The notes: generated by a model from the sequence alone, not told the origin. Shown: positions 45,369-63,803, counted from the stretch's first letter. The stretch is DNA of 64,000 nt from Candidatus Levybacteria bacterium RIFCSPLOWO2_01_FULL_42_15 (GCA_001784055.1 MFOZ01000019.1:18593-82592); one strand, 5' to 3'. A program made the numbers and translations.

Positions 45369-45377
45369 AAAACACGC

Positions 45378-47338: not shown

Positions 47339-47429
47339 CCTACTTATGAAACTTCTTTAATCACAGCTCCTGTCTCGTTATCTTTCATAACCGATAGAGA
47401 AGAGTAGCTAAAAAAGGTATAATACGGGT

Positions 47430-48689
47430 ATGTGGCAAGAGATTAAGAATGTATATCACTTGCTGGTTGCGGTTGCGGCGCAGGTGTGGTTTGGGTTTCC
47501 GTCAAGAAAGCTTAAGGTGATTGGGGTTACCGGAACCGATGGAAAGACAACTACGGTGAACCTGATTTATCATATACTACACACGTGCGGATATTCGGTC
47601 TCCATGATTTCAACCGTTGGAGCAATCATTAACGGAGAAAAAAAAGATCTTGGTTTTCATGTGACAAATCCTTCCTCATGGCAATTAAATTCCTTTATCA
47701 AGAAAGCGGCAGAAAAAAGTAGCTATCTTGTTCTTGAGGTTACATCTCACGGAATAGATCAGCATCGTATTTTTGGCATTCCTTTTGCAATTGGAGTGAT
47801 GACCAACGTTACAAACGAACATCTAGACTATCACAAAACGTATGATCGCTATCTTCAGACAAAAGTAAAATTGTTAAAACGATCCCGTATTGCCATTGTA
47901 AATCAGGATGACGGATCGCATAAAGCGATTATGCTGCTTCTTAAAGATGGAAACCGAATGGATCGAAAAGTAATTACGTATGGGAAGACGAAGTCTCCCA
48001 TGGTGAATCCGCTTGTCTACGCCTTTAAGACAAAATTGATCGGTAATTTTAATCGATCAAACGAGGGAGCTGCAATCGCAACTGTTCTTGCCCTAAACGT
48101 TAAGGAATCTTGCATCAAAGCCGCTTGTGAAAGCTTTGAGGCTCCAATTGGACGACAACAGGTAGTATATGAAGGCGATTTTACCGTAATGATTGATTTT
48201 GCCCACACCCCCAATGCTATTGAAGAGTTTCTACATTCGATCAAACCTGGTGTCAAGGGGAGACTCATTCACGTTTTTGGAAGCGCGGGAGAGCGCGACA
48301 GAAAGAAAAGACCAGAAATGGGAAAGGCATCAGCTAACTATTCGGATGTTATTATCTTAACTGCAGAGGATCCCCGGTCGGAATCGGTTGCAAAAATCAT
48401 AAACGAGATTGAATCAGGAATCGTTAATAATTCAAAATTCCCCGGCCTCGCTCCGCGAAGCCTCGCCAAAGGCGGGCGAAGCGGGACGGGCAAAATTCAA
48501 AGTGCAAAATTGTTCAAAATATCAAACAGACAGGAAGCAATCAATACTGCAATTAAAATAGCGCAAAAGGGAGATTTTGTTCTCGTTACGGGAAAAGGGC
48601 ATGAGAAGTCTATGAACTTTGGACGCGGAGAAATACCGTGGAGTGAATATGACAGCGTAAAAGAAGCACTTGTAGCAAGAAAATTATGA
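47430..48689 (+). CDS. murE: Mur ligase, MurE-like (UDP-MurNAc-L-Ala-D-Glu:diamino-acid ligase) with very short N-terminal domain and an in-frame repeat-element insertion
   Basis: P-loop VIGVTGTDGKTTT at residue about 33. EDPR (DNPR-like) motif. C-terminal insert KFPGLAPRSLAKGGRSGTGKIQSAK, encoded by the GC-rich element. Confidence 0.7.
   Translation: MWQEIKNVYHLLVAVAAQVWFGFPSRKLKVIGVTGTDGKTTTVNLIYHILHTCGYSVSMISTVGAIINGEKKDLGFHVTNPSSWQLNSFIKKAAEKSSYLVLEVTSHGIDQHRIFGIPFAIGVMTNVTNEHLDYHKTYDRYLQTKVKLLKRSRIAIVNQDDGSHKAIMLLLKDGNRMDRKVITYGKTKSPMVNPLVYAFKTKLIGNFNRSNEGAAIATVLALNVKESCIKAACESFEAPIGRQQVVYEGDFTVMIDFAHTPNAIEEFLHSIKPGVKGRLIHVFGSAGERDRKKRPEMGKASANYSDVIILTAEDPRSESVAKIINEIESGIVNNSKFPGLAPRSLAKGGRSGTGKIQSAKLFKISNRQEAINTAIKIAQKGDFVLVTGKGHEKSMNFGRGEIPWSEYDSVKEALVARKL
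48419..48487. repeat. GC-rich intragenic repeat element (copy inside murE), same family as 32329-32442
   Basis: See the 32329-32442 repeat feature. About 75% GC in roughly 30% GC surroundings. Flanked by aattcaaa(a/g) direct repeats. Confidence 0.85.
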
Positions 48690-50125
48690 AAAAGAAACAC
48701 ATCCACTTTGTTGGTATAAAAGGAGTGGGACTTGCTCCTCTTGCAATTATCGCTAAGGAAGCAGGATTTATAGTATCCGGATGCGATGTAGATGAGGAGT
48801 TTATTACGGATGAACTACTTAAGCTCTCTCGCATACAACCCATAAAGGGATTCTCCTCATCTCATCTTGGCAATGTGGATATGGTAATAACAACAGGCGC
48901 TCACGGGGGATTTGACAACCCGGAAGTACAAGAAGCAAAAAAAGGAGGAATAAAAGTTCTTACCCATGGAGAAGCGGTAGGGATGTTTATGAAAGGAGAA
49001 CTCTTTGGGAGATTCGATATGACAGGCATTTCCGTTGTTGGGTCTCACGGGAAAACAACCACAACGGCTCTTCTGGCAACAATTTTTTCTCAAAGCGGGC
49101 TTGATCCGAGTTATACCATTGGAACGTCTATTATTCCTTCGATTGGCGCATCAGGGCATTATGGGAATGGTAAATATTTTATAGCAGAGGCAGATGAATA
49201 CGCAACAGAGCCAGCTTATAACAAAACGCCAAAATTGCTTTGGCAGTATCCTTCAATAGCTGTTATTACCAATGTAGACTTTGATCACCCGGACGTTTTC
49301 AAAAATGAGGAAGATATAGCAATGGTGTTTAGGAAGTTTTTAGGAAATATTAAAAGAGATGGTATTCTTGTTCTTTATGGAGATGATCCGTATGCGGCAT
49401 TTTTAAAAAAGTCGTTTCCGGGGAAAACAATTACGTACGGATATTCGCCACAGAATGATTTTGTCTTAAGAAAAGCACGTTTTGGAGACAGGAGGACTTT
49501 TTTCTGGGTTGAGGCTCTGGGAACTAATCTTGGAGAGTTTTGCATTCATGTCATAGGTGAGCATAACGCGCTTAATGCAACGGGAGCAATAGCTGTTTCT
49601 TTAGAAGTAGGAATCGGAATTAATAAAATTAAAAAAGCGCTTATGACCTTTAGCGGATCAAAAAGACGATGTGAATTCATAGGTCAGAGTCGGTTTGGAT
49701 CCATTGTTATAGATGATTACGCTCACCATCCCACAGAGATAAAAAAGACGCTTATCGCTCTAAAAAAGGCATATCCCAAAAAACATATCGTTTGTATTTT
49801 TCAGCCCCATACGTTTTCCAGAACAAAAGCCTTATTTAATAAGTTTACTCATGCCTTTTCCGATGCTGATGAAGTTATCCTCATGGATATTTATCCCTCC
49901 TTGCGGGAAGAGCCCGATCCGGAGATTACGTCACAGTTTCTTGCTAACAAAATGAGTAAAATTCACAAGAGCGTAACATTTCTTTCTAAGGCTTGCGATG
50001 TGATACAATATGTAGCACAAAAAGAAACAGATTCTAGCTCACTTATTGTCACGATGGGGGCAGGTGACATATATAAGATTGCCCAAAAAGTTGCCCAAAA
50101 AAAGCCCTCGGTGTCTTCTCAATGA
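48686..50125 (+). CDS. murC: UDP-N-acetylmuramate--L-alanine ligase
   Basis: MurC-type N-terminus HFVGIKGVGLAPLAIIAKEAGFIVSGCDV. GSHGKTTTTA P-loop. C-terminal Mur ligase domain. Confidence 0.8.
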   Translation: MKKKHIHFVGIKGVGLAPLAIIAKEAGFIVSGCDVDEEFITDELLKLSRIQPIKGFSSSHLGNVDMVITTGAHGGFDNPEVQEAKKGGIKVLTHGEAVGMFMKGELFGRFDMTGISVVGSHGKTTTTALLATIFSQSGLDPSYTIGTSIIPSIGASGHYGNGKYFIAEADEYATEPAYNKTPKLLWQYPSIAVITNVDFDHPDVFKNEEDIAMVFRKFLGNIKRDGILVLYGDDPYAAFLKKSFPGKTITYGYSPQNDFVLRKARFGDRRTFFWVEALGTNLGEFCIHVIGEHNALNATGAIAVSLEVGIGINKIKKALMTFSGSKRRCEFIGQSRFGSIVIDDYAHHPTEIKKTLIALKKAYPKKHIVCIFQPHTFSRTKALFNKFTHAFSDADEVILMDIYPSLREEPDPEITSQFLANKMSKIHKSVTFLSKACDVIQYVAQKETDSSSLIVTMGAGDIYKIAQKVAQKKPSVSSQ

Positions 50126-50142
50126 AAAGAAATTTATAATAT

Positions 50143-51120: not shown

Positions 51121-51121
51121 T

Positions 51122-53216: not shown

Positions 53217-53656
53217 AACAACAGATTTACATCGAACAACTTAAAAAATACTCTTTAGATGCAGTCACCGCTTTAAATAGTTTACTCATGCAATTAAACA
53301 ATCGCGCAACACCACTTACCAAAAGCGCCATTAGGGAGATGATGGACTCACCGGCAACTCGATTATTTGTAGCGAGAAGATTAGACAATAACCAAATAAT
53401 TGGCATATTGGCCATGATTGTATATCGCATCCCATACACAAAAAAAGGGTTGCTTGAAGATTTTGTAGTTGATGAAAAATATAGAAGATGCGGCATTGGT
53501 ACAAAGCTTGTTAAATTCGCTATTGATAAAGCGCAAAAAGAAGAACTTGCCTATCTTGATTTTACTTCTCGTCCAACAAGAGAAGCCGCAAGCAAGCTAT
53601 ATCAACGCCTTGGTTTTAAGAAACGAGATACCAATGTTTACCGAATAGGGCTATAG
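53213..53656 (+). CDS. GNAT-family N-acetyltransferase
   Basis: Acetyl-CoA binding motif FVVDEKYRRCGIGTKLV. ATGA start/stop overlap with the upstream GlmU-like gene. Confidence 0.75.
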   Translation: MKQQIYIEQLKKYSLDAVTALNSLLMQLNNRATPLTKSAIREMMDSPATRLFVARRLDNNQIIGILAMIVYRIPYTKKGLLEDFVVDEKYRRCGIGTKLVKFAIDKAQKEELAYLDFTSRPTREAASKLYQRLGFKKRDTNVYRIGL

Positions 53657-53657
53657 T

Positions 53658-54134
53658 ATGCAGTTGAAAAATAAAGTCATTCTTTTTGACATAGATTATA
53701 CGCTGTTTAATACAGACATCTTTAAAGAGACAAAATTGCAAAAGTACTCACTTTACGAAGAAGTTAAAGAGGCGCTTAATAATCTTTCAAAGATTGCTCG
53801 GCTTGGTATTTTTTCAGAAGGAGAAATTAGACTTCAAAAGACAAAATTGGAGAGCACAAATATCGCGGATTATTTTCAAAATGATTTAGTTCATATAATG
53901 ACTAGAAAGGATGATGAAATGGAAGATATAATTACTAGATACACGGACACAGCGCTGTTTCTTGTTGATGACAAGATAGATATTTTATATAAGACAAAGA
54001 AGCTTTTTCCTTCTGTTTTTACCGTTTGGATAAAAAGGGGAAAGTATGCAAAGTCACAGAAGCCTATTGATGGGTTTGAGCCTGATGCTATAATAAAAAC
54101 TTTGCAAGAAGTTATTCCTGTTGTTTCTACCTGA
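53658..54134 (+). CDS. HAD-like hydrolase (small)
   Basis: DxDxT motif (VILFDIDYTLF). LVDDK motif. Confidence 0.5.
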   Translation: MQLKNKVILFDIDYTLFNTDIFKETKLQKYSLYEEVKEALNNLSKIARLGIFSEGEIRLQKTKLESTNIADYFQNDLVHIMTRKDDEMEDIITRYTDTALFLVDDKIDILYKTKKLFPSVFTVWIKRGKYAKSQKPIDGFEPDAIIKTLQEVIPVVST

Positions 54135-54148
54135 TACTATTTTTTACT

Positions 54149-55909
54149 ATGTGTGGAATATTCGGTTACGTCGGAAAACAAAATAATGCGGCCCAGATTG
54201 TTCTTGAAGGACTAAGGCTTCTGGAATATCGCGGGTATGATTCATGGGGAATTGCGGTAAAAAGCGGAAAGAAGCTTATGGTGAATAAGCAGGTGGGGAA
54301 AATAGAATCCGCCAAAACGACTCTTTCTGCAAGCTTTCTTGGTATTGGGCATACAAGGTGGGCGACTCATGGAGGAGTGACAGAAAACAATGCTCATCCT
54401 CATCTTGACTGCAAACAAGAAATAGCACTGGTGCATAACGGGATTGTAGAAAATTTTGTTGCGTTAAAAGAAGAATTGATAATTAGAGGACATAGTTTTA
54501 ATTCGGAAACAGACACAGAGGTAATTGTTCATCTTATCGAGGAGTATTTAAAAAAAGAAGGATTTGCCTCATCGGTGCGTGATTCATTTAATAGGCTTAA
54601 AGGACTAAACGCAATTGTTGTTGCCTACGCTGTCTCTCGTCAAATTATTGCCTGCAAAACAGGATCTTCCTTGGTGGTTGGTCAAAAAAATAGCGATTTC
54701 TATATTGCCTCGGACGCATTGGGAATAACAGACCACACAAAGAAGCTTTTCTTTCTTAAAGATGGAGAAATGGTCATACTGGGAGAAAAGTTGCAACTCA
54801 TAAGCATTGCAAACGGTAAAAAGTTAAAAGCAAATTTCGAAACAATACATTGGAAGCAGGAAGACTCCAAAATTGGAAATTTTAATCACTTTATGGAGAA
54901 GGAAATTTATGAACAACCACGCGTTGTGCGTACCATAGCAAGAACTGCCGATCAGGATATTATTTCATTAAGCAGAACAATTAAACGAGCTAGGGGAACT
55001 TTTTTTATAGGCGCAGGAACGGCCTTTCATGCCTGCCTTGCGGGGACATACCTATTCTCCGGAATCGCAAAAATCCATGTTAATACAGCGGTCGCATCTG
55101 AATTTAATTATCTGGAGGATTTTTTAACCAAAGAAAGTCTCATTATCGCGCTTTCCCAATCGGGGGAAACGATAGATGTTCTTGAGCCTCTCAATAGAGC
55201 GAAGGGGAAAGGAAGCAGAATTGTGGCGCTTACCAATGTTTTGGGCTCTTCGCTGTATAGGCTTGCTGATCACTCCCTTATTTTGGGTGCGGGAGTTGAA
55301 AAAGCAGTAGCTTCAACAAAGGCATATACTGCAAAGCTTGCTCTTTTACTTATGCTTGCGCACGCAATGAATGGAGAGATAAAAAAAGCAAAGAAAAATC
55401 TTCTTGAAACGTCAAAAGAAATACAAAGACTCCTCAGCGCTCCAAGCAGAAAAAACATACGAAAGATTGCGTTGGTTCTTAAGTCATCCGAGCATATCTA
55501 TACTATTGGGAGAGGAGTATCTTATCCAACAGCACTGGAAGCCGCCCTTAAGATTAAAGAGGTAAGCTATATACACACAGAAGGACTTGCGGGAGGAGAG
55601 TTAAAACATGGAACGCTCGCGCTTGTTGAAAAAGGAACGCCGTGTATTGTATTTGCTCCCAATGATGACACCTATGAGGCAATGATTTCCAACGCGATTG
55701 AGATCAAATCAAGAGGAGGAGTAATCATTGGCATAAGTACTAAAAAGTCTTCTGTTTTTGACTACTTTATAGAAGTTCGCGACATGGGATGGGCACGTAT
55801 TATCGCTCAAATTATCCCCGCACAGCTTTTGGCATACTATTTAGCGGTAGAGAGAGGATGCGATCCAGATAAACCTCGCAATTTAGCAAAAAGCGTAACC
55901 GTAAAGTAA
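54149..55909 (+). CDS. glmS: Glutamine--fructose-6-phosphate aminotransferase (isomerizing)
   Basis: MCGIFGY Ntn-Cys. Two SIS domains. C-terminal ...KPRNLAKSVTVK. Confidence 0.9.
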   Translation: MCGIFGYVGKQNNAAQIVLEGLRLLEYRGYDSWGIAVKSGKKLMVNKQVGKIESAKTTLSASFLGIGHTRWATHGGVTENNAHPHLDCKQEIALVHNGIVENFVALKEELIIRGHSFNSETDTEVIVHLIEEYLKKEGFASSVRDSFNRLKGLNAIVVAYAVSRQIIACKTGSSLVVGQKNSDFYIASDALGITDHTKKLFFLKDGEMVILGEKLQLISIANGKKLKANFETIHWKQEDSKIGNFNHFMEKEIYEQPRVVRTIARTADQDIISLSRTIKRARGTFFIGAGTAFHACLAGTYLFSGIAKIHVNTAVASEFNYLEDFLTKESLIIALSQSGETIDVLEPLNRAKGKGSRIVALTNVLGSSLYRLADHSLILGAGVEKAVASTKAYTAKLALLLMLAHAMNGEIKKAKKNLLETSKEIQRLLSAPSRKNIRKIALVLKSSEHIYTIGRGVSYPTALEAALKIKEVSYIHTEGLAGGELKHGTLALVEKGTPCIVFAPNDDTYEAMISNAIEIKSRGGVIIGISTKKSSVFDYFIEVRDMGWARIIAQIIPAQLLAYYLAVERGCDPDKPRNLAKSVTVK

Positions 55910-55912
55910 ACA

Positions 55913-56629
55913 ATGAAAAAAACAATCCTTATTCTTCATGGATGGGGGGTTAACGGAGAAAAATACCAAATCATAGTAGGTATGTTAAAAGAGAAGGGAT
56001 GGGTAGCGTTTTCTCCAGACCTTCCGGGATTTGGAAAGGAAAAATTGTTGAAAAAGACTATGAACGTAGACGATTATGTTGATTTTGTAAGAGATTTTAT
56101 AAGGAAGAAAAAGCTATCCAACATTGTTCTTGTTGGGCATTCATTTGGAGGAAGAATTGCCATTAAATTAGCAGCATCAGGAGAAGGGACAATAACAGGT
56201 CTTATTCTCACAGGGTCTGCTGGTATTAAGCCCAAACTCGCTTTGTATAAACGATTTATTATGTATATAGCAATTTTATTAGGAGAATTATTTCGTTTTC
56301 CGCTGTTAGCAAATGCAAAAAATATTCTGCGCAAGATTCTTTATTTTGCCATAGGGGAATGGGATTATTATAACGCGGGGGACATTAGAGAAACGTTTAA
56401 AAAAGTCATTGCCGAAGACCTTATTGATTATCTTCATAACATACGTGTCCCTACGCTTTTGGTTTGGGGCGCAAAAGATAACGTTATCCAACTGATCTAT
56501 GGGAAGATGATGAAAGAGAGAATTTCTGCGTCAGCGCTTGTTGTTGTTGAGGGCGCAGGTCATAAGCTGCCTTACGCGAATCCTAAGGAATTTATTAATG
56601 CAATTATGCCATTTTTACAGAAAATATGA
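55913..56629 (+). CDS. Alpha/beta-fold hydrolase
   Basis: ILILHGWG. Nucleophile elbow GHSFGG. 238 aa. Confidence 0.7.
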   Translation: MKKTILILHGWGVNGEKYQIIVGMLKEKGWVAFSPDLPGFGKEKLLKKTMNVDDYVDFVRDFIRKKKLSNIVLVGHSFGGRIAIKLAASGEGTITGLILTGSAGIKPKLALYKRFIMYIAILLGELFRFPLLANAKNILRKILYFAIGEWDYYNAGDIRETFKKVIAEDLIDYLHNIRVPTLLVWGAKDNVIQLIYGKMMKERISASALVVVEGAGHKLPYANPKEFINAIMPFLQKI

Positions 56630-58302
56630 GCATACTTTACGCAGCCACAAGCACACTTTTCTTTGTCTGGATTTCCAGAAATATTTTATACTGGGTACAC
56701 CTTTGGCAAATAAAAGAGTATCGGTGGGATCGGCTTTCGGTTCATCTTAGAGAGACGGTTCAAGGAAGGTCGCTTTTTTTCTCACCTCTTCTTCTTTTCA
56801 AAGTAGTACTTATAGGTGCATTTATCCTGGTAATCCAAAAACAGCTTTCTCTTTCTTTATACCACAGCGCAATCACGTTTGTGTTTGCCTTGCAATTTAG
56901 CTCTGTGGTAAAAGAAGTAGGGAGAAAAACCATAAAGATCCCTAAGCCAACGATAAAGGCAGTGATTATTAGTGGATTTTCTCTCTTTATCCTTTTCTCT
57001 CTTTTTTCTCTTCCGCTGTTGGATCGATTTGCATGGATTCTTTTAATCGATCGCCTGCTTCCTGCTGTTGTTTTAGTTGCGACACTTATCATGTCGTTTC
57101 CAAGCGGGCTTTACTATGATTGGAAAATCGCTCGGGCGATAAGGCTTTTAAGGAAGCAGAAAAAGCTTATCGTAATGGGCATTACCGGAAGTTATGGAAA
57201 AAGCTCAACAAAAGAATATCTTGCGCAGCTTTTGAGAACAAAATTTTCTCTTATTGCTACTTTCGGTACCCAAAATACGCCCATTGGTTTGGCAAACACA
57301 ATTCTTGAGAAAATGCAAGACAAAACGGCTATTTTTGTTGCGGAGATGGGTGCATACAAAAGAGGGGAGATTGCACAGCTTGCCCAAATGGTTCATCCAA
57401 CAATAGGAGTTCTTACCGGTATCAACGCGCAACATTTCTCTCTCTTTGGTAGCATTGAAAATACGATTGATGCAAAGTATGAACTTATTGAGTCGATTTC
57501 TCCTAACGGTTTATGTCTTTTTAACGGGAATAACGTTTACACGTACGAATTGTGGAAACGGGCATTGCGTGAAAATCGTAACGCAGTATTATATAGGGTT
57601 CTAACGACTAATTCCTTTTCCGAAGAACAATTTAAACAGGAGCATGGGATTATTGCCTATAACGCGCGTATTTCTTCGCGTAGTGTTTCCTTTGATGTTG
57701 TTCTGAAGAAGAAAGGGAAACCAAGAATAAAAATAGAGAGTCTGGGAGCGCCAATTGGTGGGATTCACACACTTGAAAATCTTCTTCCCGCAATTTATGT
57801 TGCGTATATTTTAGAAATGAAACCTTTTGAAATTAAAGAAGCGTTATCCCTGCTTGTTTCGCCTGTTCATACCATGAGCATTCTTAGATCTTTTTTGGGA
57901 GTAATTCTTCTAGACAATACGCATAATACAAATCCTCGTGGTATTGAGGCTGCGGTACTATTACTTAAGCAGTATCTAAGACAGAAAAAAAGACTATGTG
58001 TTTTTGTATTGCAACCAATGATTGAATTGGGTAGCAGAGGGAAAGAGGAGCATAGGATAGCGGGAAGAGCTATTGGTGCGGTTTGTTCTTATCTTTTTCT
58101 AACAAATAAGAATTTTTATCAAGAAATCGTAAAAGGAGTTCGGGATAGCGGAGGAAAATGTAAGGTAAAAATAGCAAGCCCTCAAATCATTGCGAGTTTT
58201 GTCAAGACCCTGACGAAAGATGATATTATGTATTTTGAGGGAAGAGAGACCGCGTCTTCTTTGGTAAAGATTCTTAAGCGAGATCCAAAAACAGATATAT
58301 GA
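56626..58302 (+). CDS. murF: UDP-MurNAc-tripeptide--D-Ala-D-Ala ligase (MurF) with about 170-aa N-terminal polytopic membrane domain
   Basis: Mur ligase core ITGSYGKSSTKE...VAEMGAYKRGEI...NAQHFSLFGSIENT, as in MurF. The first about 170 aa contain about 5 hydrophobic helices. Confidence 0.7.
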   Translation: MSILYAATSTLFFVWISRNILYWVHLWQIKEYRWDRLSVHLRETVQGRSLFFSPLLLFKVVLIGAFILVIQKQLSLSLYHSAITFVFALQFSSVVKEVGRKTIKIPKPTIKAVIISGFSLFILFSLFSLPLLDRFAWILLIDRLLPAVVLVATLIMSFPSGLYYDWKIARAIRLLRKQKKLIVMGITGSYGKSSTKEYLAQLLRTKFSLIATFGTQNTPIGLANTILEKMQDKTAIFVAEMGAYKRGEIAQLAQMVHPTIGVLTGINAQHFSLFGSIENTIDAKYELIESISPNGLCLFNGNNVYTYELWKRALRENRNAVLYRVLTTNSFSEEQFKQEHGIIAYNARISSRSVSFDVVLKKKGKPRIKIESLGAPIGGIHTLENLLPAIYVAYILEMKPFEIKEALSLLVSPVHTMSILRSFLGVILLDNTHNTNPRGIEAAVLLLKQYLRQKKRLCVFVLQPMIELGSRGKEEHRIAGRAIGAVCSYLFLTNKNFYQEIVKGVRDSGGKCKVKIASPQIIASFVKTLTKDDIMYFEGRETASSLVKILKRDPKTDI

Positions 58303-59540
58303 TACGCCCAATTGCCATTGGTCTCTCTCCAAATACGACTTTTTTGGATGTTCTATTTTCAATCCGCTTATTAATTCAGCCATGGATATACCAAAAAGGG
58401 AACTATATCAAGAAGCTGGAAGATTGGTTTTTACGCTATTTTCATGCCGATGTAGCGGTATCTTTTGATAGTGCCCGCATTGCTCTTTTTTATACTTTAA
58501 AATCTCTTGGGATAAAAGAAGGAGATGAGGTTCTTCTGCAAGCATTTACCTGCGTTGCGGTTCCCAACGCGATAATGTGGGCAAAAGCAAAACCAGTGTA
58601 CGTTGATATTGCCAACTCTTACACCATTGATACAAAAGATCTGGAGAAAAAAATAACTTCTTCCACCAAAGCAATCATTGTGCAGCATACGTTTGGAATC
58701 CCGGCGGAGATGGATCAAATTGTAGGTATTGCAAAAAAGCACAATCTTTTTGTCATAGAGGATTGTGCTCATACGATTGGAGGAATGTATAAAGAACAAA
58801 AGCTTGGATCGCTTGGAGACGTGGGTATTTTTAGTTTTGGCAGGGATAAAGCCTTTTCTTCTGTATTTGGAGGGATTGTGATTACCTCGCGCAAGAATAT
58901 TGGAAAACAGTTAAAAGTCTTCCAAGGCAATTTATCACACCCATCTATTTTATGGATTGCGCAGCAACTTTTCCATCCGGTTGCCCTTTCTCTCGTTTTT
59001 CCTTTATACAACCTTTTTTTAGGAAAAATGTTCCTTTTATCCTTGCAGCTGTTTGGAATGCTTTCGCTTCCTTTAGAGACTGAAGAAAAACAGGGAAAAT
59101 TCCCCCATAATTTGGGGAAAAAAATGCCAAATGCCCTGGCAGCATTAGCTCTCTTTCAACTTAAAAGAATTTCGCAGTTTAATGCAAGAAGAAAAGAAAT
59201 CGCAAGCGAATACGTCCAAAAGATTAACGTACTATACTCCGGTACATTGTATAAAAATATAATTCCTTTTTTACGTTTTCCGCTTGTTGTTGAAAAAAGA
59301 GAAGAGATGCTTAATTTCTTCAGATCCAAAAAAATCTATGTTGGGAAATGGTATTCTGAAGTCGTAGATCCAAAGGGCGTTGATTTAAAACAAGTTTTTT
59401 ATAAAACAGGTTCTTGTCCAAATGCAGAATATATAGCAAAGCATATTCTTAATGTACCTACATATCCTACCATGACGGATTCTGACGTTAAAAACGTAAT
59501 TAATGTATTTCAAAAATATGATCAAGATCATAGAAATTGA
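58299..59540 (+). CDS. DegT/DnrJ/EryC1-like PLP-dependent aminotransferase (embedded in dcw cluster)
   Basis: VLLQAFTCVAVPNAIMWA...IVQHTFGIPAEMD...IEDCAHTIGG...FSFGRDKAFSS (Lys). Confidence 0.6.
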   Translation: MIRPIAIGLSPNTTFLDVLFSIRLLIQPWIYQKGNYIKKLEDWFLRYFHADVAVSFDSARIALFYTLKSLGIKEGDEVLLQAFTCVAVPNAIMWAKAKPVYVDIANSYTIDTKDLEKKITSSTKAIIVQHTFGIPAEMDQIVGIAKKHNLFVIEDCAHTIGGMYKEQKLGSLGDVGIFSFGRDKAFSSVFGGIVITSRKNIGKQLKVFQGNLSHPSILWIAQQLFHPVALSLVFPLYNLFLGKMFLLSLQLFGMLSLPLETEEKQGKFPHNLGKKMPNALAALALFQLKRISQFNARRKEIASEYVQKINVLYSGTLYKNIIPFLRFPLVVEKREEMLNFFRSKKIYVGKWYSEVVDPKGVDLKQVFYKTGSCPNAEYIAKHILNVPTYPTMTDSDVKNVINVFQKYDQDHRN

Positions 59541-60537
59541 CGAGAAAAAAATTTGGGATGAGTTTTTAGATAAAAAAGAAATCCAGTTTTTTCCCTTATT
59601 TCAGTCATGGAATTGGGGAGAAGTTCAAAAGCAAACCGGAGACGAGCTGTTGCGCGTTGGAGCGTATAAAAACAATAAGCTAGCTGCGGTGTGTCAGATT
59701 ATTGACATACATGCGAAACGAGGACATTATCTGCATCTTCGTCATGGACCGGTACTTGTGCCCTTTGATTCAGCCGTGTTTGATGCGCTACTCGTCTATG
59801 TTAAAAAAGTCGCTTGTCAAAAGAAAGCTTCATTCGTTCGACTCAGTCCGCTCGTTGAAAAAAGTCAGGCAGACAAAGCTATGTTAAGCGCAGGAGGTAT
59901 GATAGGCGCACCAATTCACAACATGGATGCGCAGGTATGTTGGGTTTTAGACATCACAAAGCCGGAAGAACAACTCCTTAAAGAAATGCGCAAGTCTCAC
60001 CGCTATCTAATCCGTAAGGCACAAGGCATGAACATTACCATTAGAAAAACAAAAGGAGCCTCAAGTATCAATATCTTCTTGGAAATCTACAAAGATTTGT
60101 CTGGGAGGAAACATTTTGTTCCCCATAAGGGAATAAAAGAAGAGCTTGACGTCTTTGGAAAAGAAGATCAGGCATTATTGTTTTTGGCCGAATATAAACA
60201 GAAGGTCATTGGGGGAACGCTTATTTTGTTTGTTGGAAATAATGCCATTTATCACCATGGGGCATCTGTTGAAGGCTATAGAGATGTACCTGTTTCATAT
60301 CTTTTACAGTGGGAAGCAATTTTAGAAGCCAAGAGAAGAGACAAAAAGCTCTATAATTTTTGGGGAATCGCACCATCTGATTCCTCCAGACATCCATGGC
60401 AGGGATTAACGCTTTTCAAAACAGGTTTTGGGGGAGAAAAAAAGGAGTTTCTTCACGCGCAAGATATTCCCCTCTCTTTTTGGTACGGGAAAAACTACTT
60501 GGTGGAATACATCCGAAAACTACAAAGAGGCTATTAA
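59518..60537 (+). CDS. FemAB-family peptidoglycan interpeptide-bridge aminoacyltransferase
   Basis: FemAB-like N-terminus (FFPLFQSWNWGEVQ). GNAT-like duplicated fold, about 340 aa. Start may be 59503. Confidence 0.7.
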   Translation: MIKIIEIDEKKIWDEFLDKKEIQFFPLFQSWNWGEVQKQTGDELLRVGAYKNNKLAAVCQIIDIHAKRGHYLHLRHGPVLVPFDSAVFDALLVYVKKVACQKKASFVRLSPLVEKSQADKAMLSAGGMIGAPIHNMDAQVCWVLDITKPEEQLLKEMRKSHRYLIRKAQGMNITIRKTKGASSINIFLEIYKDLSGRKHFVPHKGIKEELDVFGKEDQALLFLAEYKQKVIGGTLILFVGNNAIYHHGASVEGYRDVPVSYLLQWEAILEAKRRDKKLYNFWGIAPSDSSRHPWQGLTLFKTGFGGEKKEFLHAQDIPLSFWYGKNYLVEYIRKLQRGY

Positions 60538-60557
60538 GTTTGATATAATATACGTCT

Positions 60558-61568
60558 ATGATGCGGCTTTTAGGGCTTACTATAATGTCGTTTGTTATCA
60601 GTGGGACTTTGTTTGTGCCATTTATCGATTTTCTCTACAAAATAAAGCTCAGAAGAAGAATACAAAAAACAAAAGATATCTTTAACAACAACACTCCTCT
60701 TTTTGATCGTTTTAACGCGTGGAAGGTGGGAACGCCATTCGGAGGAGGGCTTCTTATTGTAGTGGTTGTTCCCGTATTAACACTTTGGGCATATGGTCTT
60801 TTTGAAACAAAAATATCATTCTGGCAACTATTCGTTTTGCTCTTTTCTTTTATTGGATTTGGACTTCTTGGTCTTTATGATGATCTTAAAAAACTTACCA
60901 ATGAAAAAAAATCCGTTGTTTTTGGATTGAGGTTTCGTCATAAGTTTTTCATCCAATGGATTCTCGCATTTTTAATCGCCTCTGTTCTTTATTTTCAGCT
61001 TGGATTTGATTTCATTTTCATCCGCGGATTTGGACTCGCAAACCTAGGATTTCTTTTCATCCCGTTTGCGGCGTTTGTGATTGTTTCTTTTGTAAACGCA
61101 TTTAATATTGCGGATGGACTTGATGGGTTAGCGTCCGGTCTTTTTCTCATCTGCATGGTTGCGTTTTTGGCAATCTCCTCCTCGCAACTGGATAACTATC
61201 TGGGAATTTTTATCGCAATTATTTTAGGGAGCGTTGCGGCATTCCTTTATTTTAATATTTATAAAGCGAGGCTTTGGCTTGGAGATACGGGATCTCTTGC
61301 TCTTGGAGCAGTGCTTGCGGTTGTTGGACTTTTGACAGGAAAAACGATTGCGCTTGCCGTCATAGGAGGAATTTTTGTTCTTGAAATTGGCTCATCGCTT
61401 GTGCAAATTCTTGGAAAAAAGATTCTTGGAAAAAAGATTCTTCCCGCAGCCCCTTTCCATCTGTATTTGCAATACAGGGGATGGGAAGAGCCAAAAATTG
61501 TGATGAGAGCTTGGCTTTTGGGATTTCTTATGGCAGTTTTAGGATTGTATATAGCATTCGCCGTGTAA
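60558..61568 (+). CDS. mraY: Phospho-N-acetylmuramoyl-pentapeptide transferase
   Basis: NAFNIADGLDGLASG. DTGSLALGA. 10 TM helices. Confidence 0.9.
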   Translation: MMRLLGLTIMSFVISGTLFVPFIDFLYKIKLRRRIQKTKDIFNNNTPLFDRFNAWKVGTPFGGGLLIVVVVPVLTLWAYGLFETKISFWQLFVLLFSFIGFGLLGLYDDLKKLTNEKKSVVFGLRFRHKFFIQWILAFLIASVLYFQLGFDFIFIRGFGLANLGFLFIPFAAFVIVSFVNAFNIADGLDGLASGLFLICMVAFLAISSSQLDNYLGIFIAIILGSVAAFLYFNIYKARLWLGDTGSLALGAVLAVVGLLTGKTIALAVIGGIFVLEIGSSLVQILGKKILGKKILPAAPFHLYLQYRGWEEPKIVMRAWLLGFLMAVLGLYIAFAV

Positions 61569-61584
61569 AAAATATCTGCCCATC

Positions 61585-62652
61585 ATGAAGCGCATAGATA
61601 TTTCACTTCTTTTTGTTGTTATTCTCTTATCCTTTTTTGGTCTTCTTATGATTTATGAGGCATCTTCGTTTATTGCTTTTCGAGATTTTGGAGACAAATA
61701 TCACTATCTTAAAGATCAATCTCTTTGGATTCTTCTGGGACTTAGTGGTTTGGTATTTTTCTCCCTTTTTGATTATCGAAAGCTTTATCTATTTTCCTTA
61801 CCGTTTCTTATTGCTGCAATAATCTTGCTTTCATTGGTGTTTGTGCCTGGGGTTGGGGTTCTCTTGCACGGTGCTCGACGATGGATAGACGCAGGTCCTT
61901 TTTTTATCCAGCCATCAGAATTTGTAAAGCTTGCCTTAACTATTTATCTTGCCGCCTGGTTTTCTCATAAAGAAAAAGGAAGATTTTTTGCGTTTTTGCT
62001 CCTGCTTGGGCTTGTCATTTTCCTTATCATGTTGCAACCTGATATGGGAACGGCAGCCATTATCCTTCTTGAAGCAATCGTTATGTATTTTTTGTCAGGA
62101 GGAAACATTATCCATTTTCTTTTTCTTCTTCCGGCTATCGCAGCGGGCGGGTTTTTTCTTATAAAAATAGAGCCCTATCGTTTTGAGCGGTTTATTGCGT
62201 TTCTCAGCTTGGGAAAATCACTGGAAGGCTCCTCATATCATGTTAAACAAATACTCATAGCACTTGGAATGGGTGGGCTTACGGGAGTTGGCTTTGGAAA
62301 TTCATTGCAGAAATATGCCTATCTTCCAGAAAATACTACCGATTCAATCTTCGCAATTATCGCGGAAGAAGTTGGTTTTCTTGGCTCAACGCTTGTTATT
62401 ATCTGCTTTATGATTCTTGCCGCGAGAGGATTTTTTATTGCGTTTCACAGTCGGACGATGTTTGGAAAACTTCTTGCTTCGGGAATAACAGCATTTCTTT
62501 CTGCTCAAGCGCTCATTAATTTAGGAGCTCAAACCGCGCTTGTTCCTCTTACTGGTGTTCCTCTTCCTTTTATCTCCTACGGCGGATCCGCTCTTATTGT
62601 AGATTTATGTTCGATTGGAATTCTACTCAATATATCCAAAGAACGAGTATGA
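61585..62652 (+). CDS. ftsW: SEDS-family peptidoglycan glycosyltransferase FtsW
   Basis: FtsW/RodA topology and conserved blocks (IQPSEFVKLALTIYLAAW; PDMGTA; SYGGSAL). Sits between mraY and murG. Confidence 0.85.
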   Translation: MKRIDISLLFVVILLSFFGLLMIYEASSFIAFRDFGDKYHYLKDQSLWILLGLSGLVFFSLFDYRKLYLFSLPFLIAAIILLSLVFVPGVGVLLHGARRWIDAGPFFIQPSEFVKLALTIYLAAWFSHKEKGRFFAFLLLLGLVIFLIMLQPDMGTAAIILLEAIVMYFLSGGNIIHFLFLLPAIAAGGFFLIKIEPYRFERFIAFLSLGKSLEGSSYHVKQILIALGMGGLTGVGFGNSLQKYAYLPENTTDSIFAIIAEEVGFLGSTLVIICFMILAARGFFIAFHSRTMFGKLLASGITAFLSAQALINLGAQTALVPLTGVPLPFISYGGSALIVDLCSIGILLNISKERV

Positions 62653-63803
62653 AACTTCTCATTGTTGCCGGAGGAGGAGGACATTTTTCCGCAGCGTTTT
62701 CGGTTATTCAGAAGCTTCCTAAAGACGTCAGCGTATTGGTGGTTGGAAGAAAGCATTCGTTTGAAGGAGATTCAGCGCTTTCGCTAGAGTATCAGACATG
62801 CAGCAGCAACAATATTCCTTTTGCTACAGTAGGTGCGGGGAGACTGCAAAGAGCATTTACTAAGCACACGATAGCGTCTCTTGTCAAAACCCCGTTTGGA
62901 TTTGCGCAATCCCTTAAGATTCTTAAAAAGTTTAATCCTGATATAGTTCTTTCGTTTGGAGGATATGTATCTCTGCCCGTAGTTGTGGGAGCACGGTTAT
63001 CTGGAATACCTATTGTTGTGCATGAACAGATTCCCGCAGGAGGACTTTCTAACAAAATCGCATCGTTAATAGCAGACAGAGTGTGTATATCGTGGAATGA
63101 ATCATATGATTTTTTCCCTAGAGAAAAAACTGTGCTCACGGGTAATCCTATTCGTAGGGAAATTTCTCGTACTCAGAGCAGTGTCTTATTAGACGGGGCA
63201 ACGGAGGTTTTTCTCCGTGATCAAGCTCCTTTTATCTATATTACCGGAGGATCTGGGGGTTCTCACTTTCTTAATGTTCTTGTTGAAGAGCTAATTCCTG
63301 ATCTTACTGAAAAATATAAAATAATTCATCAAACAGGAGGCTCAAATGAGTATAAAGATTTTGAGCGGCTTTTATATCTTAAGAATAATCTTCCTCATCA
63401 AATAAGACATAGATATATTCCCATAAGATTTTTAGATGCGTCCCAAATTGGATGGATTCTTTCTCACGCTTCTCTTGTGGTTGGTCGGTGCGGTATCAAT
63501 ACCGTATGCGAGCTTTTGTATTGGGGTGTTCCGTCTCTTCTTATCCCTCTTCCTTATGCGCAAGGTAACGAACAAGAAAAAAATGCTCTGTTGGTAAAAG
63601 AAGCGGGATTCGGAGAAATTCTTGCACAGAAAAACGCAACAAAAACAGAGCTCAAAAAACAAATACATCATATGATTCTTAAAAATAATGCATATAAGTT
63701 TCATGCTCGCAAGGGAAGAAAGAGACTGATACCAAACGCATCAGAAAACATTATAAGCGTAGTTATCGCTGTTTATGAGAAAAGAAAGAAACAAGAAAAG
63801 TAA
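62649..63803 (+). CDS. murG: UDP-GlcNAc:Und-PP-MurNAc-pentapeptide GlcNAc transferase
   Basis: MKLLIVAGGGGHFSAAFSV. C-terminal GGSGGS...E motif region. ATGA overlap with ftsW. The ORF-track start at 62607 is an upstream extension. Confidence 0.85.
   Translation: MKLLIVAGGGGHFSAAFSVIQKLPKDVSVLVVGRKHSFEGDSALSLEYQTCSSNNIPFATVGAGRLQRAFTKHTIASLVKTPFGFAQSLKILKKFNPDIVLSFGGYVSLPVVVGARLSGIPIVVHEQIPAGGLSNKIASLIADRVCISWNESYDFFPREKTVLTGNPIRREISRTQSSVLLDGATEVFLRDQAPFIYITGGSGGSHFLNVLVEELIPDLTEKYKIIHQTGGSNEYKDFERLLYLKNNLPHQIRHRYIPIRFLDASQIGWILSHASLVVGRCGINTVCELLYWGVPSLLIPLPYAQGNEQEKNALLVKEAGFGEILAQKNATKTELKKQIHHMILKNNAYKFHARKGRKRLIPNASENIISVVIAVYEKRKKQEK

What the first reader, a model, noticed from the sequence alone, without database searches (positions are those of the whole stretch)
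56626..58302. MurF carrying an N-terminal approximately 170-aa polytopic membrane domain
The cytoplasmic D-Ala-D-Ala-adding ligase core (ITGSYGKSSTKE...) is preceded by about 5 hydrophobic helices instead of the usual small soluble N-domain. Membrane tethering of MurF next to MraY/MurG is unusual and may organise a membrane-associated precursor-synthesis complex.
Basis: seen in the sequence. Interest (0 to 1): 0.55.

Follow-up and report, generated by a model that had tools for sequence, protein, structure and literature searches.

The report
Membrane-embedded MurF cell-wall ligase
This gene encodes the last cytoplasmic peptidoglycan ligase (MurF) with its usual nucleotide-binding head replaced by a conserved five-helix membrane domain; hundreds of candidate-phyla-radiation bacteria (and Poribacteria) have this build, and no paper I could search describes it.

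Summary
Observation confirmed. ORF 56626..58302 (+, 558 aa) is one gene. Residues 1-176 form five hydrophobic helices with a positive-inside pattern (N-out, ligase in the cytoplasm). Residues ~177-558 are a catalytically intact MurF-type ligase. The canonical MurF domain 1 is absent. The suggested internal start is refuted: Met184 is Ile in 81 of 83 orthologues.

The architecture is not a local oddity. The membrane domain defines a family of about 700 clusters at 50% identity. It was found in 119 species-representative genomes, mostly Patescibacteria/CPR, always fused to the only MurF-type ligase in the locus. The same build (N-domain homology unproven) sits in the murF slot, followed by ddl and mraY, of Poribacteria-like 4-6 Mb contigs.

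The domain has no Pfam family and no solved fold relative. Its cytoplasmic loop motif WQxKEYRxDR...TxxG is kept in 56 of 59 intact enzymes but in 2 of 44 degenerate relatives, so it probably takes part in substrate handling and is more than an anchor.

The gene is translationally coupled to an alpha/beta hydrolase, a DegT-type aminotransferase and a FemAB-family gene, and natural fusions among these exist. The substrate (UDP-linked or lipid-linked) is unresolved. I rate it a new variant of a known kind, with moderately high interest.

The parts
56626..58302 (+). Complete gene for the membrane-embedded MurF-type ligase (558 aa plus stop)
   Evidence: ORF list. 100% identical protein P0001 and more than 120 full-length homologues. 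AlphaFold pLDDT 94.7, pTM 0.90.
56626..57153 (+). N-terminal membrane domain, aa 1-176 (five TM helices plus stalk). It has no Pfam family and no solved fold relative.
56632..56712 (+). Helix 1 / TM1 (aa 3-29), with conserved R18 and N19 near its cytoplasmic end
56713..56781 (+). Cytoplasmic loop 1 (aa 30-52), which together with W27-Q28 at the end of helix 1 carries the signature WQxKEYRxDRxxxHLxETxQG. W27, Q28, K30, E31, Y32, R33, D35, R36, H40, T44 and G47 are each 88-100% conserved in catalytically intact family members.
   Evidence: The motif is present in 56 of 59 intact but only 2 of 44 degenerate relatives.
56785..56841 (+). TM2 (aa 54-72), with conserved K59
56851..56925 (+). TM3 (aa 76-100)
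56926..56958 (+). Cytoplasmic loop 3 with the K-[KR]-P-x-x-T-x-K motif (window sequence KIPKPTIK; P106, T109, K111)
56953..57009 (+). TM4 (aa 110-128)
57025..57153 (+). TM5 (aa 134-157, with conserved W137 and D142), continuing as one long helix (stalk, aa 158-176, FPxxLYxD...A171...K174 region) into the ligase domain
57178..57213 (+). ATP-binding P-loop GITGSYGKSSTK (aa 185-196)
57181..57804 (+). Mur ligase middle (ATP-binding) domain, with intact EMGAY, QHxSLFG and AKYEL motifs
   Evidence: Pfam PF08245, 1.1e-29. Motif table. Foldseek top hits are MurF structures 4qf5, 4cvm, 3zl8 and 1gg4.
57919..58233 (+). Mur ligase C-terminal domain (LDNTHNTNP and PMIELG motifs)
   Evidence: Pfam PF02875, 5.9e-05, 24.3 bits, just under the 28.4-bit cut-off. 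It clears the cut-off in homologues. The structure aligns to MurF over ~390 columns.
55913..56629 (+). Alpha/beta hydrolase (GHSFGG nucleophile elbow). Its stop overlaps the MurF start (ATGA). It is a conserved partner gene.
   Evidence: It lies directly upstream in 63 of 87 loci. An orthologue lies upstream of the membrane MurF in Poribacteria-like dcw clusters (37% identity, 8e-42). Fusions are P0041, P0321 and P0322.
58299..59540 (+). DegT/DnrJ/EryC1-type PLP aminotransferase-like gene with a ~55-aa hydrophobic insert (aa ~210-263). Its start overlaps the MurF stop (ATGA).
   Evidence: It lies directly downstream in 58 of 87 loci. Fused to the membrane MurF in L064 (1073 aa) and in P0274-P0283.
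59503..60537 (+). FemAB-family (aminoacyl-tRNA-dependent peptidyltransferase-like) gene
   Evidence: Triple fusion MurF-DegT-FemAB in P0281, 1293 aa.
60558..63803 (+). mraY (60558..61568), ftsW (61585..62652) and murG (62607..63803): the membrane steps that follow MurF
   Evidence: Conserved order in related loci.
47430..50125 (+). The other Mur ligases of the cluster: murE (47430..48689, 419 aa, also lacking domain 1) and murC (48686..50125, full length). There is no second MurF-type gene in the 64-kb window.

Best explanation
This is the organism's MurF, the ATP-dependent ligase that completes the peptidoglycan stem peptide, built as an integral membrane protein.

Shown:
- The soluble UDP-binding domain 1 of canonical MurF is replaced by a conserved five-helix membrane domain (N-terminus outside, ligase in the cytoplasm).
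- All ligase catalytic motifs are intact.
- It is the only MurF-type gene in the cell-wall/division cluster, here and in about 90 related loci.

Inferred:
- The enzyme still adds D-Ala-D-Ala to UDP-MurNAc-tripeptide, but does so at the inner face of the membrane.
- The conserved cytoplasmic loops of the membrane domain (WQxKEYRxDR...TxxG after TM1, KRPxxTxK before TM4) lie where domain 1 meets the middle domain in canonical enzymes. That is where the substrate's pyrophosphate/nucleotide end lies. They would therefore functionally replace domain 1.
- The pentapeptide product would then be released next to MraY, the next enzyme.
- The co-translated alpha/beta hydrolase, DegT-like and FemAB-like proteins probably work on the same precursor at the same site. 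Their chemistry is not resolved.
For: - Gene integrity: it is a single ORF. The start overlaps the stop of the upstream gene. 75 of 83 orthologues start at the same Met, and Met184 is Ile in 81 of 83.
- MurF identity of the core: TIGR01143 scores 6.6e-51, against 4.5e-14 for MurC, the next ligase type. In a PDB profile search MurF structures score 9e-46 to 9e-36, against 2e-14 or weaker for MurC, MurD and MurE. The Foldseek top 10 are all MurF. The P-loop, EMGAY, QH, AKYEL, DDTxNxNP and PMIELG motifs are conserved.
- Missing domain 1: the profile and structure matches begin at canonical residue ~66-94.
- Topology.
- Distribution: 696 clusters at 50% identity match the N-domain profile. In genomes representing GTDB species, 119 stretches are confirmed by tblastn. 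All 80 fetched loci carry the WQ..KEY motif at about aa 25 and nearly all a P-loop at about aa 185 of one ORF (most complete ones 520-560 aa).
- Sole MurF: there is exactly one MurF-type ligase per locus, and it always has the N-domain. No N-domain-less MurF occurs in ~1.3 Mb of flanks.
- Position: the gene lies directly upstream of mraY in 12 loci, or is separated from it only by DegT and FemAB.
- Independent case: on Poribacteria-like 4-6 Mb contigs a MurF of the same build lies in a complete canonical cluster, MraW-FtsL-PBP-MurE-hydrolase-[membrane MurF]-Ddl-MraY-MurD-FtsW-MurG-MurC-FtsQ-FtsA.
- More than an anchor: the loop-1 motif is present in 56 of 59 catalytically intact members and 2 of 44 degenerate ones (Fisher p = 9e-23, not corrected for phylogeny). 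Five polar residues inside or at the ends of the TM helices are conserved (R18, N19, K59, E97, D142).
- Established knowledge: domain 1 of Mur ligases binds the UDP-MurNAc end of the substrate (PMC10214165; PMC6113224).
Against: - No biochemical data exist for any member.
- The window protein scores below the curated MurF cut-off (173.6 versus 288.6 bits).
- Its C-domain is just under Pfam's cut-off.
- I could not scan any whole genome, so a second, canonical MurF elsewhere is not excluded.
- The murE of the same cluster lacks domain 1 and has no replacement. Domain 1 may therefore be dispensable here, and the membrane domain need not substitute for it.
- The link between the loop motif and catalytic integrity may partly reflect a few clades.
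- TM helices and topology are predictions.
- The hydrolase, DegT and FemAB partners are unexplained by a plain MurF role.
Confidence: 0.6

Rival explanations
1. It has the same architecture, but the substrate is lipid-linked. The membrane domain binds the undecaprenyl-pyrophosphate end of a lipid I/II-type tripeptide intermediate, so D-Ala-D-Ala (or the last residues) is added after the MraY step. MurT/GatD and FemXAB work on lipid II in a similar way.
For: - Exactly the carrier-binding domain is the one swapped for a membrane domain.
- In MurE and MurF crystal structures the substrate's pyrophosphate lies at the boundary between the N-domain and the middle domain. The MurT authors argue that for lipid II this boundary must face the membrane (PMC6113224). 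In this protein that boundary is the membrane surface.
- Conserved basic and polar residues cluster at the cytoplasmic interface, and polar residues lie within the TM helices.
- The partners include a FemAB-family enzyme (the S. aureus members act on lipid II) and a DegT-like protein with a hydrophobic insert.
- The murE of the cluster also lacks the UDP-binding domain.
Against: - MraY is known to use UDP-MurNAc-pentapeptide, and no bacterium is known to finish the stem peptide on the lipid carrier.
- The Poribacteria-like clusters keep a full-length MurE and a fully canonical gene order, which suggests the ordinary pathway.
- No structural similarity to any lipid-carrier-binding protein was found.
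- The argument is purely geometric.
Confidence: 0.2
2. The membrane domain is mainly a scaffold or anchor. It docks the ligase onto MraY, MurG or FtsW (or the divisome) and takes no direct part in catalysis.
For: - Synteny with mraY-ftsW-murG is conserved.
- Natural fusions of Mur enzymes to membrane partners are known (MurD-FtsW, MraY-MurG; PMC10214165).
- Relatives that have lost every ligase motif keep the membrane domain and the FPxEIYxD motif, and still sit in the murF slot next to mraY (P0186 in L005, P0174 in L087). So the domain is selected independently of ligase chemistry.
- The murE of the cluster works without domain 1.
Against: - The loop-1 motif is as conserved as the catalytic motifs and decays together with them. 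That is not expected for a pure anchor.
- The N-domain is nearly as conserved as the C-domain (44% versus 49% pairwise identity).
- No interaction data exist.
Confidence: 0.12
3. It is not functionally MurF. Instead it is a MurF-derived ligase that, with the hydrolase, the DegT-like and the FemAB-like proteins, builds a different or additional modification of the precursor, such as another terminal residue or a side branch.
For: - The four genes overlap start-to-stop and are fused in several combinations. These are hydrolase-MurF (P0041), MurF-hydrolase (P0321, P0322), MurF-DegT in about 10 clusters, and MurF-DegT-FemAB (P0281).
- The score against the curated MurF model is below its cut-off.
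Against: - It is the only MurF-type gene in every cluster examined.
- In 12 loci it stands alone directly upstream of mraY, without DegT or FemAB.
- In Poribacteria-like clusters it is followed by ddl and completes a set of exactly four Mur ligases.
- Its nearest sequence and structure relatives are all MurF.
Confidence: 0.07
4. It is an annotation or assembly artefact. The true gene would start at the internal Met184, with the upstream hydrophobic stretch non-coding or a separate gene.
For: An in-frame ATG exists at codon 184, just before the P-loop.
Against: - There is no stop codon between residue 1 and residue 184.
- Met184 is Ile in 81 of 83 orthologues.
- The N-domain is conserved, colinear and fused in all 80 genome loci and in more than 120 database proteins from independent assemblies.
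- The full-length model is confident, with pTM 0.90.
Confidence: 0.01

Closest known systems
Canonical MurF (UDP-MurNAc-tripeptide:D-Ala-D-Ala ligase; e.g. E. coli 1GG4, A. baumannii 4QF5, P. aeruginosa 4CVM, T. maritima 3ZL8)
   Same: The middle ATP-binding domain and the C-terminal domain are the same, with all catalytic motifs. They are the best sequence and structure matches. The gene position relative to mraY also agrees.
   Different: Canonical MurF is a soluble three-domain protein whose ~80-aa domain 1 binds the UDP end of the substrate. Here domain 1 is absent, replaced by a 176-aa five-helix membrane domain with its own conserved motifs. The score is below the curated family cut-off.
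MurT of the MurT/GatD lipid II amidotransferase (S. aureus 6GS2, 7Q8E)
   Same: It is a Mur-ligase-fold enzyme without the UDP-binding N-domain that acts at the membrane surface. Its structural neighbours are MurF enzymes (PMC6113224). It appears among the PDB hits.
   Different: MurT is soluble, has a DUF1727-type C-domain, needs GatD and amidates rather than ligates. The window protein matches the MurT model only at 16.5 bits against a cut-off of 800. No GatD is adjacent, and the window protein is itself membrane-integral.
Natural Mur chimeras with membrane enzymes (MurD-FtsW, MraY-MurG) and MurE-MurF fusions (B. pertussis 8F5D)
   Same: The logic is the same: fixing a Mur enzyme to a pathway partner or to the membrane, which the field takes as support for a Mur multi-enzyme complex (PMC10214165). 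In the MurE-MurF chimera the N-terminal cap of MurF is also remodelled.
   Different: In those cases two recognisable enzymes are joined. Here the added part is an orphan membrane domain with no family or fold relative, and it replaces a ligase domain rather than being appended. That survey used proteins over 600 aa from named species and does not mention this form or CPR.
FemX/FemA/FemB and MurM-type peptidyltransferases (as partners, not homologues)
   Same: A FemAB-family gene is co-transcribed with this MurF and occasionally fused to it. Members of this family modify the stem peptide of late precursors.
   Different: It has a different fold and different chemistry. The window FemAB-like protein scores far below the curated FemX cut-off (46 versus 500 bits), so its substrate is unknown.

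Membership tests
MurF (UDP-N-acetylmuramoyl-tripeptide--D-alanyl-D-alanine ligase, TIGR01143) | Central ATP-binding domain with the P-loop GxxGK[ST] and the conserved Glu, His and Lys motifs of Mur ligases | tested here: met
   Pfam PF08245 at 1.1e-29. GITGSYGKSSTK, EMGAY, QHFSLFG and AKYEL are present and conserved.
MurF (UDP-N-acetylmuramoyl-tripeptide--D-alanyl-D-alanine ligase, TIGR01143) | C-terminal Mur ligase domain (binds the incoming amino acid or dipeptide) | tested here: met
   PF02875 matches aa 432-536 at 24.3 bits, just under the 28.4 cut-off for the window protein, and is recorded for nearly all homologues. The predicted structure superposes on MurF over ~390 columns.
MurF (UDP-N-acetylmuramoyl-tripeptide--D-alanyl-D-alanine ligase, TIGR01143) | N-terminal domain 1 that binds the UDP-MurNAc end of the substrate | tested here: not met
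   The alignment to TIGR01143 starts at profile position 66 and to 1GG4 at residue 94. Residues 1-176 are five hydrophobic helices.
MurF (UDP-N-acetylmuramoyl-tripeptide--D-alanyl-D-alanine ligase, TIGR01143) | Score above the curated family cut-off | tested here: not met
   173.6 bits against a cut-off of 288.6. This is expected when about 65 profile positions are missing and the lineage is divergent.
MurF (UDP-N-acetylmuramoyl-tripeptide--D-alanyl-D-alanine ligase, TIGR01143) | Closer to MurF than to MurC, MurD, MurE or other Mur-fold ligases | tested here: met
   MurF scores 6.6e-51, against 4.5e-14 for MurC, 1.5e-13 for MurD and 5.8e-10 for MurE. The PDB ranking and the Foldseek ranking agree.
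MurF (UDP-N-acetylmuramoyl-tripeptide--D-alanyl-D-alanine ligase, TIGR01143) | Occupies the murF position of the dcw cluster (after murE, before mraY) as the only such ligase | tested here: met
   In the window the order is murE, murC, murB, murA ... MurF, DegT, FemAB, mraY, ftsW, murG. The gene is directly upstream of mraY in 12 loci. The order is murE-hydrolase-MurF-ddl-mraY-murD in L089 and L090. There is one MurF-type gene per locus. Whole genomes were not scanned.
MurF (UDP-N-acetylmuramoyl-tripeptide--D-alanyl-D-alanine ligase, TIGR01143) | Catalyses ATP-dependent addition of D-Ala-D-Ala to UDP-MurNAc-tripeptide | not testable with these tools
   This needs an enzyme assay or genetic complementation.
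MurT (lipid II isoglutaminyl synthase subunit) | Mur-fold middle domain plus DUF1727 C-domain, an obligatory GatD partner, and a family-level score | tested here: not met
   NF045635 scores 16.5 bits against a cut-off of 800. No glutamine amidotransferase gene adjoins it in the window or in related loci.
Mur enzyme fused to a known membrane enzyme (MurD-FtsW, MraY-MurG type chimera) | The fused membrane part is itself a recognisable peptidoglycan membrane enzyme | tested here: not met
   The N-domain has no Pfam hit in any of 23 members below E = 0.005 and no fold relative in the PDB. mraY, ftsW and murG are separate genes downstream.

The most novel reading that the evidence does not exclude
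In these bacteria the last stem-peptide ligation takes place on, or in a fixed complex with, the membrane carrier. The five-helix domain would hold the undecaprenyl-pyrophosphate end of a lipid-linked tripeptide precursor, or dock directly into MraY. The ligase, the alpha/beta hydrolase, the DegT-like and the FemAB-like enzymes would then form one membrane-bound finishing machine. That would change the textbook order (all Mur ligases soluble, acting before MraY) for a large part of bacterial diversity. It would also explain why relatives that lost all ligase motifs keep the membrane domain.
Probability: 0.18. Interest if true: 0.9.

Novelty: new variant of a known kind. Interest (0 to 1): 0.62.

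Why it matters
MurC to MurF are textbook soluble cytoplasmic enzymes and long-standing antibiotic targets. Whether they form a complex that channels precursors to MraY at the membrane is a long-debated question.

Here a whole radiation of bacteria (Patescibacteria/CPR), and at least Poribacteria-like genomes, has hard-wired MurF into the membrane. It discarded the UDP-binding domain to do so, and tied MurF to three further enzymes by operon structure and gene fusion.

This gives a natural, sequence-defined system in which membrane-coupled precursor synthesis can be tested directly, through truncations, loop mutants, and assays with UDP-linked versus lipid-linked substrates. It defines a new, unannotated membrane domain family of about 700 clusters. 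It also flags that automated annotation as plain "MurF" hides a different architecture, and that a family of catalytically dead derivatives is at risk of the same label.

Tried and rejected
- Internal start at Met184: rejected. The position is Ile in 81 of 83 orthologues, and no Met occurs in the surrounding region (aa 170-190) in 62 of 83.
- Known family for the N-domain: none in Pfam or NCBIfam, even at E up to 1 across 23 members.
- Literature: seven full-text searches on MurF or Mur ligase with transmembrane, membrane-anchored, Patescibacteria, CPR, Saccharibacteria or dcw terms found no description. The Mur-chimera survey does not cover it, and the dcw-evolution paper deliberately left CPR genomes out of its analysis.
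- Second Mur ligase or second N-domain copy in the window or in 87 loci: none of MurF type.
- Taxonomy via cluster names: mostly uninformative. Only the MraY of L090 gave a name, Candidatus Poribacteria.
- Word-based homologue search with the degenerate relative P0174 returned only the query itself.
- Profile-profile test of homology between the CPR-type and the Poribacteria-type N-domains was not significant (hhalign E = 0.21), although the motifs are colinear. I therefore claim the same architecture for these forms, not proven homology of the membrane domains.
- MurT-like identity: rejected.
- ddl and murD were not found among the window ORFs I scanned with Pfam (ORFs of at least 170-180 aa, not exhaustively).
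Full report
**The object.** The window holds an ATG-to-stop ORF at 56626..58302 (+), 558 aa. Its ATG overlaps the stop of the upstream gene (..AAAATATGAGC..), and its own stop overlaps the ATG of the next gene (..ATATGATA..). Pfam places a Mur ligase middle domain at aa 186-393 (1.1e-29) and a Mur ligase C-domain at aa 432-536 (24.3 bits, just under the 28.4 cut-off). NCBIfam ranks murF (TIGR01143) first at 6.6e-51. MurC, MurD and MurE follow at 1e-14 to 1e-10. The murF alignment runs from aa 173 to profile position 66 onward. A profile of 83 orthologues matches E. coli MurF 1GG4 only over chain residues 94-388. The ~80-residue domain 1 of canonical MurF therefore has no counterpart.

**The N-terminal 176 residues.**
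- An AlphaFold model built on 83 orthologues is very confident (pLDDT 94.7, pTM 0.90). It shows helices 3-29, 54-72, 76-100, 110-128 and 134-176. Two short helices (34-43, 45-52) lie between the first and second long helix. The domain alone folds the same way (pLDDT 90).
- Across the family the five long helices have mean Kyte-Doolittle values of 1.5 to 2.2. The loops are hydrophilic.
- Mean Lys+Arg counts alternate: 0 (N-terminus), 5.2 (loop 1), 0.2, 3.8 (loop 3), 0.6 and 6.4 (after helix 5). This is the positive-inside signature of an N-out, C-in protein, so the ligase lies in the cytoplasm.
- The fifth helix continues without a break as a stalk into the first strand of the ligase domain.

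**One gene, not two.**
- There is no stop between codon 1 and the P-loop.
- The candidate internal start, Met184, is unique to this sequence. 81 of 83 orthologues have Ile there. 75 of 83 begin at the same Met1.
- More than 120 database proteins from independent assemblies cover 95-100% of the query at 40-48% identity and lengths mostly 525-575 aa.
- The N-domain is under purifying selection comparable to the enzyme. Mean pairwise identity is 44%, against 57% for the middle domain and 49% for the C-domain. L26, W27, Q28, R36, T44, G47, P106, K111 and W137 are invariant.

**How widespread it is.**
- A profile of the N-domain alone, searched against 1.84 billion cluster representatives, finds 696 proteins at E up to 1e-3 and 331 at E up to 1e-10. 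Nearly all complete ones are 490-565 aa.
- A scan of one genome per GTDB species for LWQxKEYR[LFW] gave 199 matches, of which 119 were confirmed by tblastn.
- The 80 loci fetched are titled Levyibacteriota, Microgenomates, Woesebacteria, Gottesmanbacteria, Spechtbacteria, Paceibacterota, Kerfeldbacteria, Komeilibacteria, Dojkabacteria, Saccharibacteria and "Patescibacteria group". There are also evidently mislabelled third-party MAGs and two "Anaerolineae" bins.
- In every locus the motif sits at about residue 25. In nearly every locus a P-loop sits at about residue 185 of the same ORF.
- Each locus holds exactly one MurF-type ligase (core HMM above 200 bits for every complete ORF), and it always carries the N-domain. 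All other ligase hits score below 80 bits and are MurE, MurC or MurD. No N-domain-less MurF occurs in about 1.3 Mb of flanking sequence.
- The window itself contains murE, murC, murB, murA, glmS and glmU-like genes, mraY, ftsW and murG, but no second MurF.
- Neighbour proteins place the window organism among Levybacteria-like CPR bacteria (MraY about 75% identical).

**Independent support that this build is a real MurF.** A search seeded with a fusion protein (see below) also returned 590-640-aa MurF proteins on 4-6 Mb contigs. Their first ~190 residues contain four to five hydrophobic segments and colinear motifs: LHxLQLxGYxTxRY, KKPLVYTARAKR and P-x-E...A.KR. Their loci are complete canonical dcw clusters: MraW-FtsL-PBP-MurE (full length)-alpha/beta hydrolase-[membrane MurF]-Ddl-MraY-MurD-FtsW-MurG-MurC-FtsQ-FtsA. 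The MraY of one of them falls in a 90%-identity cluster named Candidatus Poribacteria. Here the membrane form completes a set of exactly four Mur ligases, sits in the murF slot, and is followed by the enzyme that makes D-Ala-D-Ala. The cores are 30% identical to the window protein (1e-48). Homology of the two kinds of N-domain is suggested by the colinear motifs but was not significant in a profile-profile test (E = 0.21). I therefore claim the same architecture, not proven common descent of the membrane part.

- After helix 1: W27-Q28-x-K30-E31-Y32-R33-x-D35-R36-xxx-H40...T44-x-x-G47.
- Before helix 4: K-[KR]-P106-x-x-T109-x-K111.
- After helix 5: P159 and A171...K174.
- Polar residues lie within or at the ends of the helices: R18, N19, K59, E97 and D142.

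Among the 114 best family representatives of at least 355 aa, 59 keep all three ligase motifs tested and 44 keep none. The degenerate group is discussed below. The loop-1 motif is present in 56 of 59 intact members and 2 of 44 degenerate ones. TxxG is present in 52 of 59 versus 4 of 44 (Fisher p = 9e-23 and 9e-17, not corrected for shared ancestry). A motif that is as conserved as the active site, and is lost together with it, points to a role in substrate binding or catalysis, beyond mere anchoring.

Established structural knowledge says domain 1 of Mur ligases holds the UDP-MurNAc end of the substrate (PMC10214165). It also says the substrate's pyrophosphate lies at the boundary between domain 1 and the middle domain in MurE and MurF complexes (PMC6113224). 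In this protein that boundary is the inner surface of the membrane. My best reading is that the cytoplasmic loops replace domain 1 in gripping the pyrophosphate/nucleotide end of UDP-MurNAc-tripeptide. The pentapeptide would then be made at the membrane, next to MraY.

The same geometry makes a lipid-linked substrate conceivable. The MurT authors argue that, for lipid II, a UDP-binding domain would clash with the membrane. I cannot decide between the two with sequence tools, and I give the lipid-linked version about 0.2.

**Partners.**
- In 63 of 87 loci an alpha/beta hydrolase lies directly upstream, usually with overlapping stop and start.
- In 58 of 87 loci a DegT/DnrJ/EryC1-type gene lies directly downstream, followed by a FemAB-family gene and then mraY-ftsW-murG.
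- In 12 loci the ligase directly precedes mraY.
- The hydrolase partner is also present in the Poribacteria-like clusters (37% identity, 8e-42).
- Natural fusions exist in several combinations: hydrolase-MurF (P0041, 738 aa), MurF-hydrolase (P0321, P0322), MurF-DegT (L064 1073 aa, P0274 with 31 member sequences, P0275-P0280, P0282, P0283), and MurF-DegT-FemAB (P0281, 1293 aa). Most of these still match the N-domain HMM.
- The window hydrolase keeps the GHSFGG nucleophile elbow.
- The DegT-like protein keeps the SFxxxK lysine region. Relative to solved sugar aminotransferases it carries a ~55-residue hydrophobic insert (aa ~210-263).

These enzymes very likely act on the same precursor at the same place. 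What they do is not explained by a plain MurF role and remains open.

**Comparison with what is known.** The closest family is MurF. It shares the middle and C-domains, the motifs, the rank order of similarity and the gene position. It fails the domain 1 test and the curated score cut-off (173.6 versus 288.6 bits). MurT is the known Mur-fold enzyme without domain 1 that works at the membrane, but the window protein is not a MurT (16.5 bits against a cut-off of 800; no GatD). Known natural chimeras (MurE-MurF, MurC-Ddl, MurC-MurB, MurG-MurC, MurD-FtsW, MraY-MurG) join two recognisable enzymes. The survey that catalogued them used proteins over 600 aa from named species and does not mention this form. 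Seven full-text searches found no description of a membrane-embedded MurF. Database records call these proteins MurF, "Mur ligase family protein" or hypothetical.

**Verdict.** It is a new variant of a known enzyme kind, with an orphan membrane domain family. It is the normal MurF of a very large group of bacteria. The evidence adds that the domain is probably part of the working enzyme and that the ligase belongs to a conserved, sometimes fused, four-enzyme module.

**Limits.**
- No whole genome was scanned.
- There are no coordinates or complex predictions.
- TM helices and topology are predicted.
- Taxon labels of many MAGs are unreliable.
- The motif statistics are not corrected for phylogeny.

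Noticed in passing
L005:10001-11212, L087:10001-11593, L004:819-2036 (proteins P0186, P0174, P0170, and about 44 of the 114 longest family representatives): A large set of relatives keeps the five-helix domain and the FPxEIYxD motif but has lost every ligase motif (P-loop, EMGAY, QH). Some (~360-408 aa) also lack the C-domain. In L005 and L087 such a dead copy occupies the murF slot (glmS | x | ... mraY ftsW murG) in Levybacteria-like genomes. Whether an intact copy exists elsewhere in those genomes is unknown.
   Followed up: partly
window 47430-48689 (also the MurE genes of L001, L003, L005, L087 and most CPR loci, 379-443 aa): The cluster's MurE also lacks the N-terminal UDP-binding domain. 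TIGR01085 aligns from profile position 70, there is no PF01225 hit, and only about 90 nt of intergenic space lies upstream. It has no membrane replacement. The Poribacteria-like clusters have a full-length MurE.
   Followed up: partly
window 55913-60537; L064:10-3228; P0041, P0274-P0283, P0321, P0322: A conserved, translationally coupled cassette of alpha/beta hydrolase, membrane MurF, DegT-like and FemAB-like genes. Natural fusions occur in several combinations, including a 1293-aa MurF-DegT-FemAB protein. The hydrolase-MurF pair is also present in Poribacteria-like dcw clusters. The chemistry of the three partners in peptidoglycan synthesis is unexplained.
   Followed up: partly
window 58926-59087 (aa ~210-263 of the DegT-like protein at 58299-59540): A ~55-residue hydrophobic insertion is absent from the solved sugar aminotransferases (7B0M, QdtB, ArnB and others). 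It suggests membrane association of this PLP-enzyme-like protein. A second DegT gene at 14483-15742 matches the Pfam model end to end in a single stretch, so no such insert is apparent.
   Followed up: partly
L089:10001-11863, L090:10001-11779 (P0315, P0314) and relatives P0307-P0320: MurF with a ~190-aa N-terminal segment of four to five hydrophobic stretches occurs on 4-6 Mb contigs (Candidatus Poribacteria by the MraY cluster name). It lies in a canonical dcw cluster, directly followed by ddl. Several of these proteins carry odd low-complexity repeats (GQAPALRRGKTNN...) inserted in the ligase part.
   Followed up: partly
window 44436-63803: The dcw-type cluster has an unusual order: mraW, PBP, murE, murC, murB, murA, a glmU-like nucleotidyltransferase, GNAT, HAD, glmS, hydrolase, MurF, DegT, FemAB, mraY, ftsW, murG. 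I found no murD or ddl among the ORFs I scanned with Pfam (at least 170-180 aa; not exhaustive).
   Followed up: partly
window 1-37900: The first 37 kb is a dense glycan-synthesis region: about ten glycosyltransferases (GT2, GT4), RmlD-like, epimerase and C-methyltransferase genes, a PMT-family protein, sugar nucleotidyltransferases and a GHMP kinase. Three large ORFs have no Pfam match: 15752-17263 (503 aa), 18847-21300 (817 aa) and 26996-30133 (1045 aa).
   Followed up: no
L007, L009, L011, L012, L015, L016, L020, L021 and others (record titles): Many third-party-assembled MAG records titled "uncultured Gammaproteobacteria bacterium" carry gene content and protein identities typical of Levybacteria-like CPR genomes. 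Their taxon labels appear to be placeholders or errors, and the "Saccharibacteria", "Eisenbacteria" and "Pacearchaeota" labels on short contigs should also be treated with caution.
   Followed up: no
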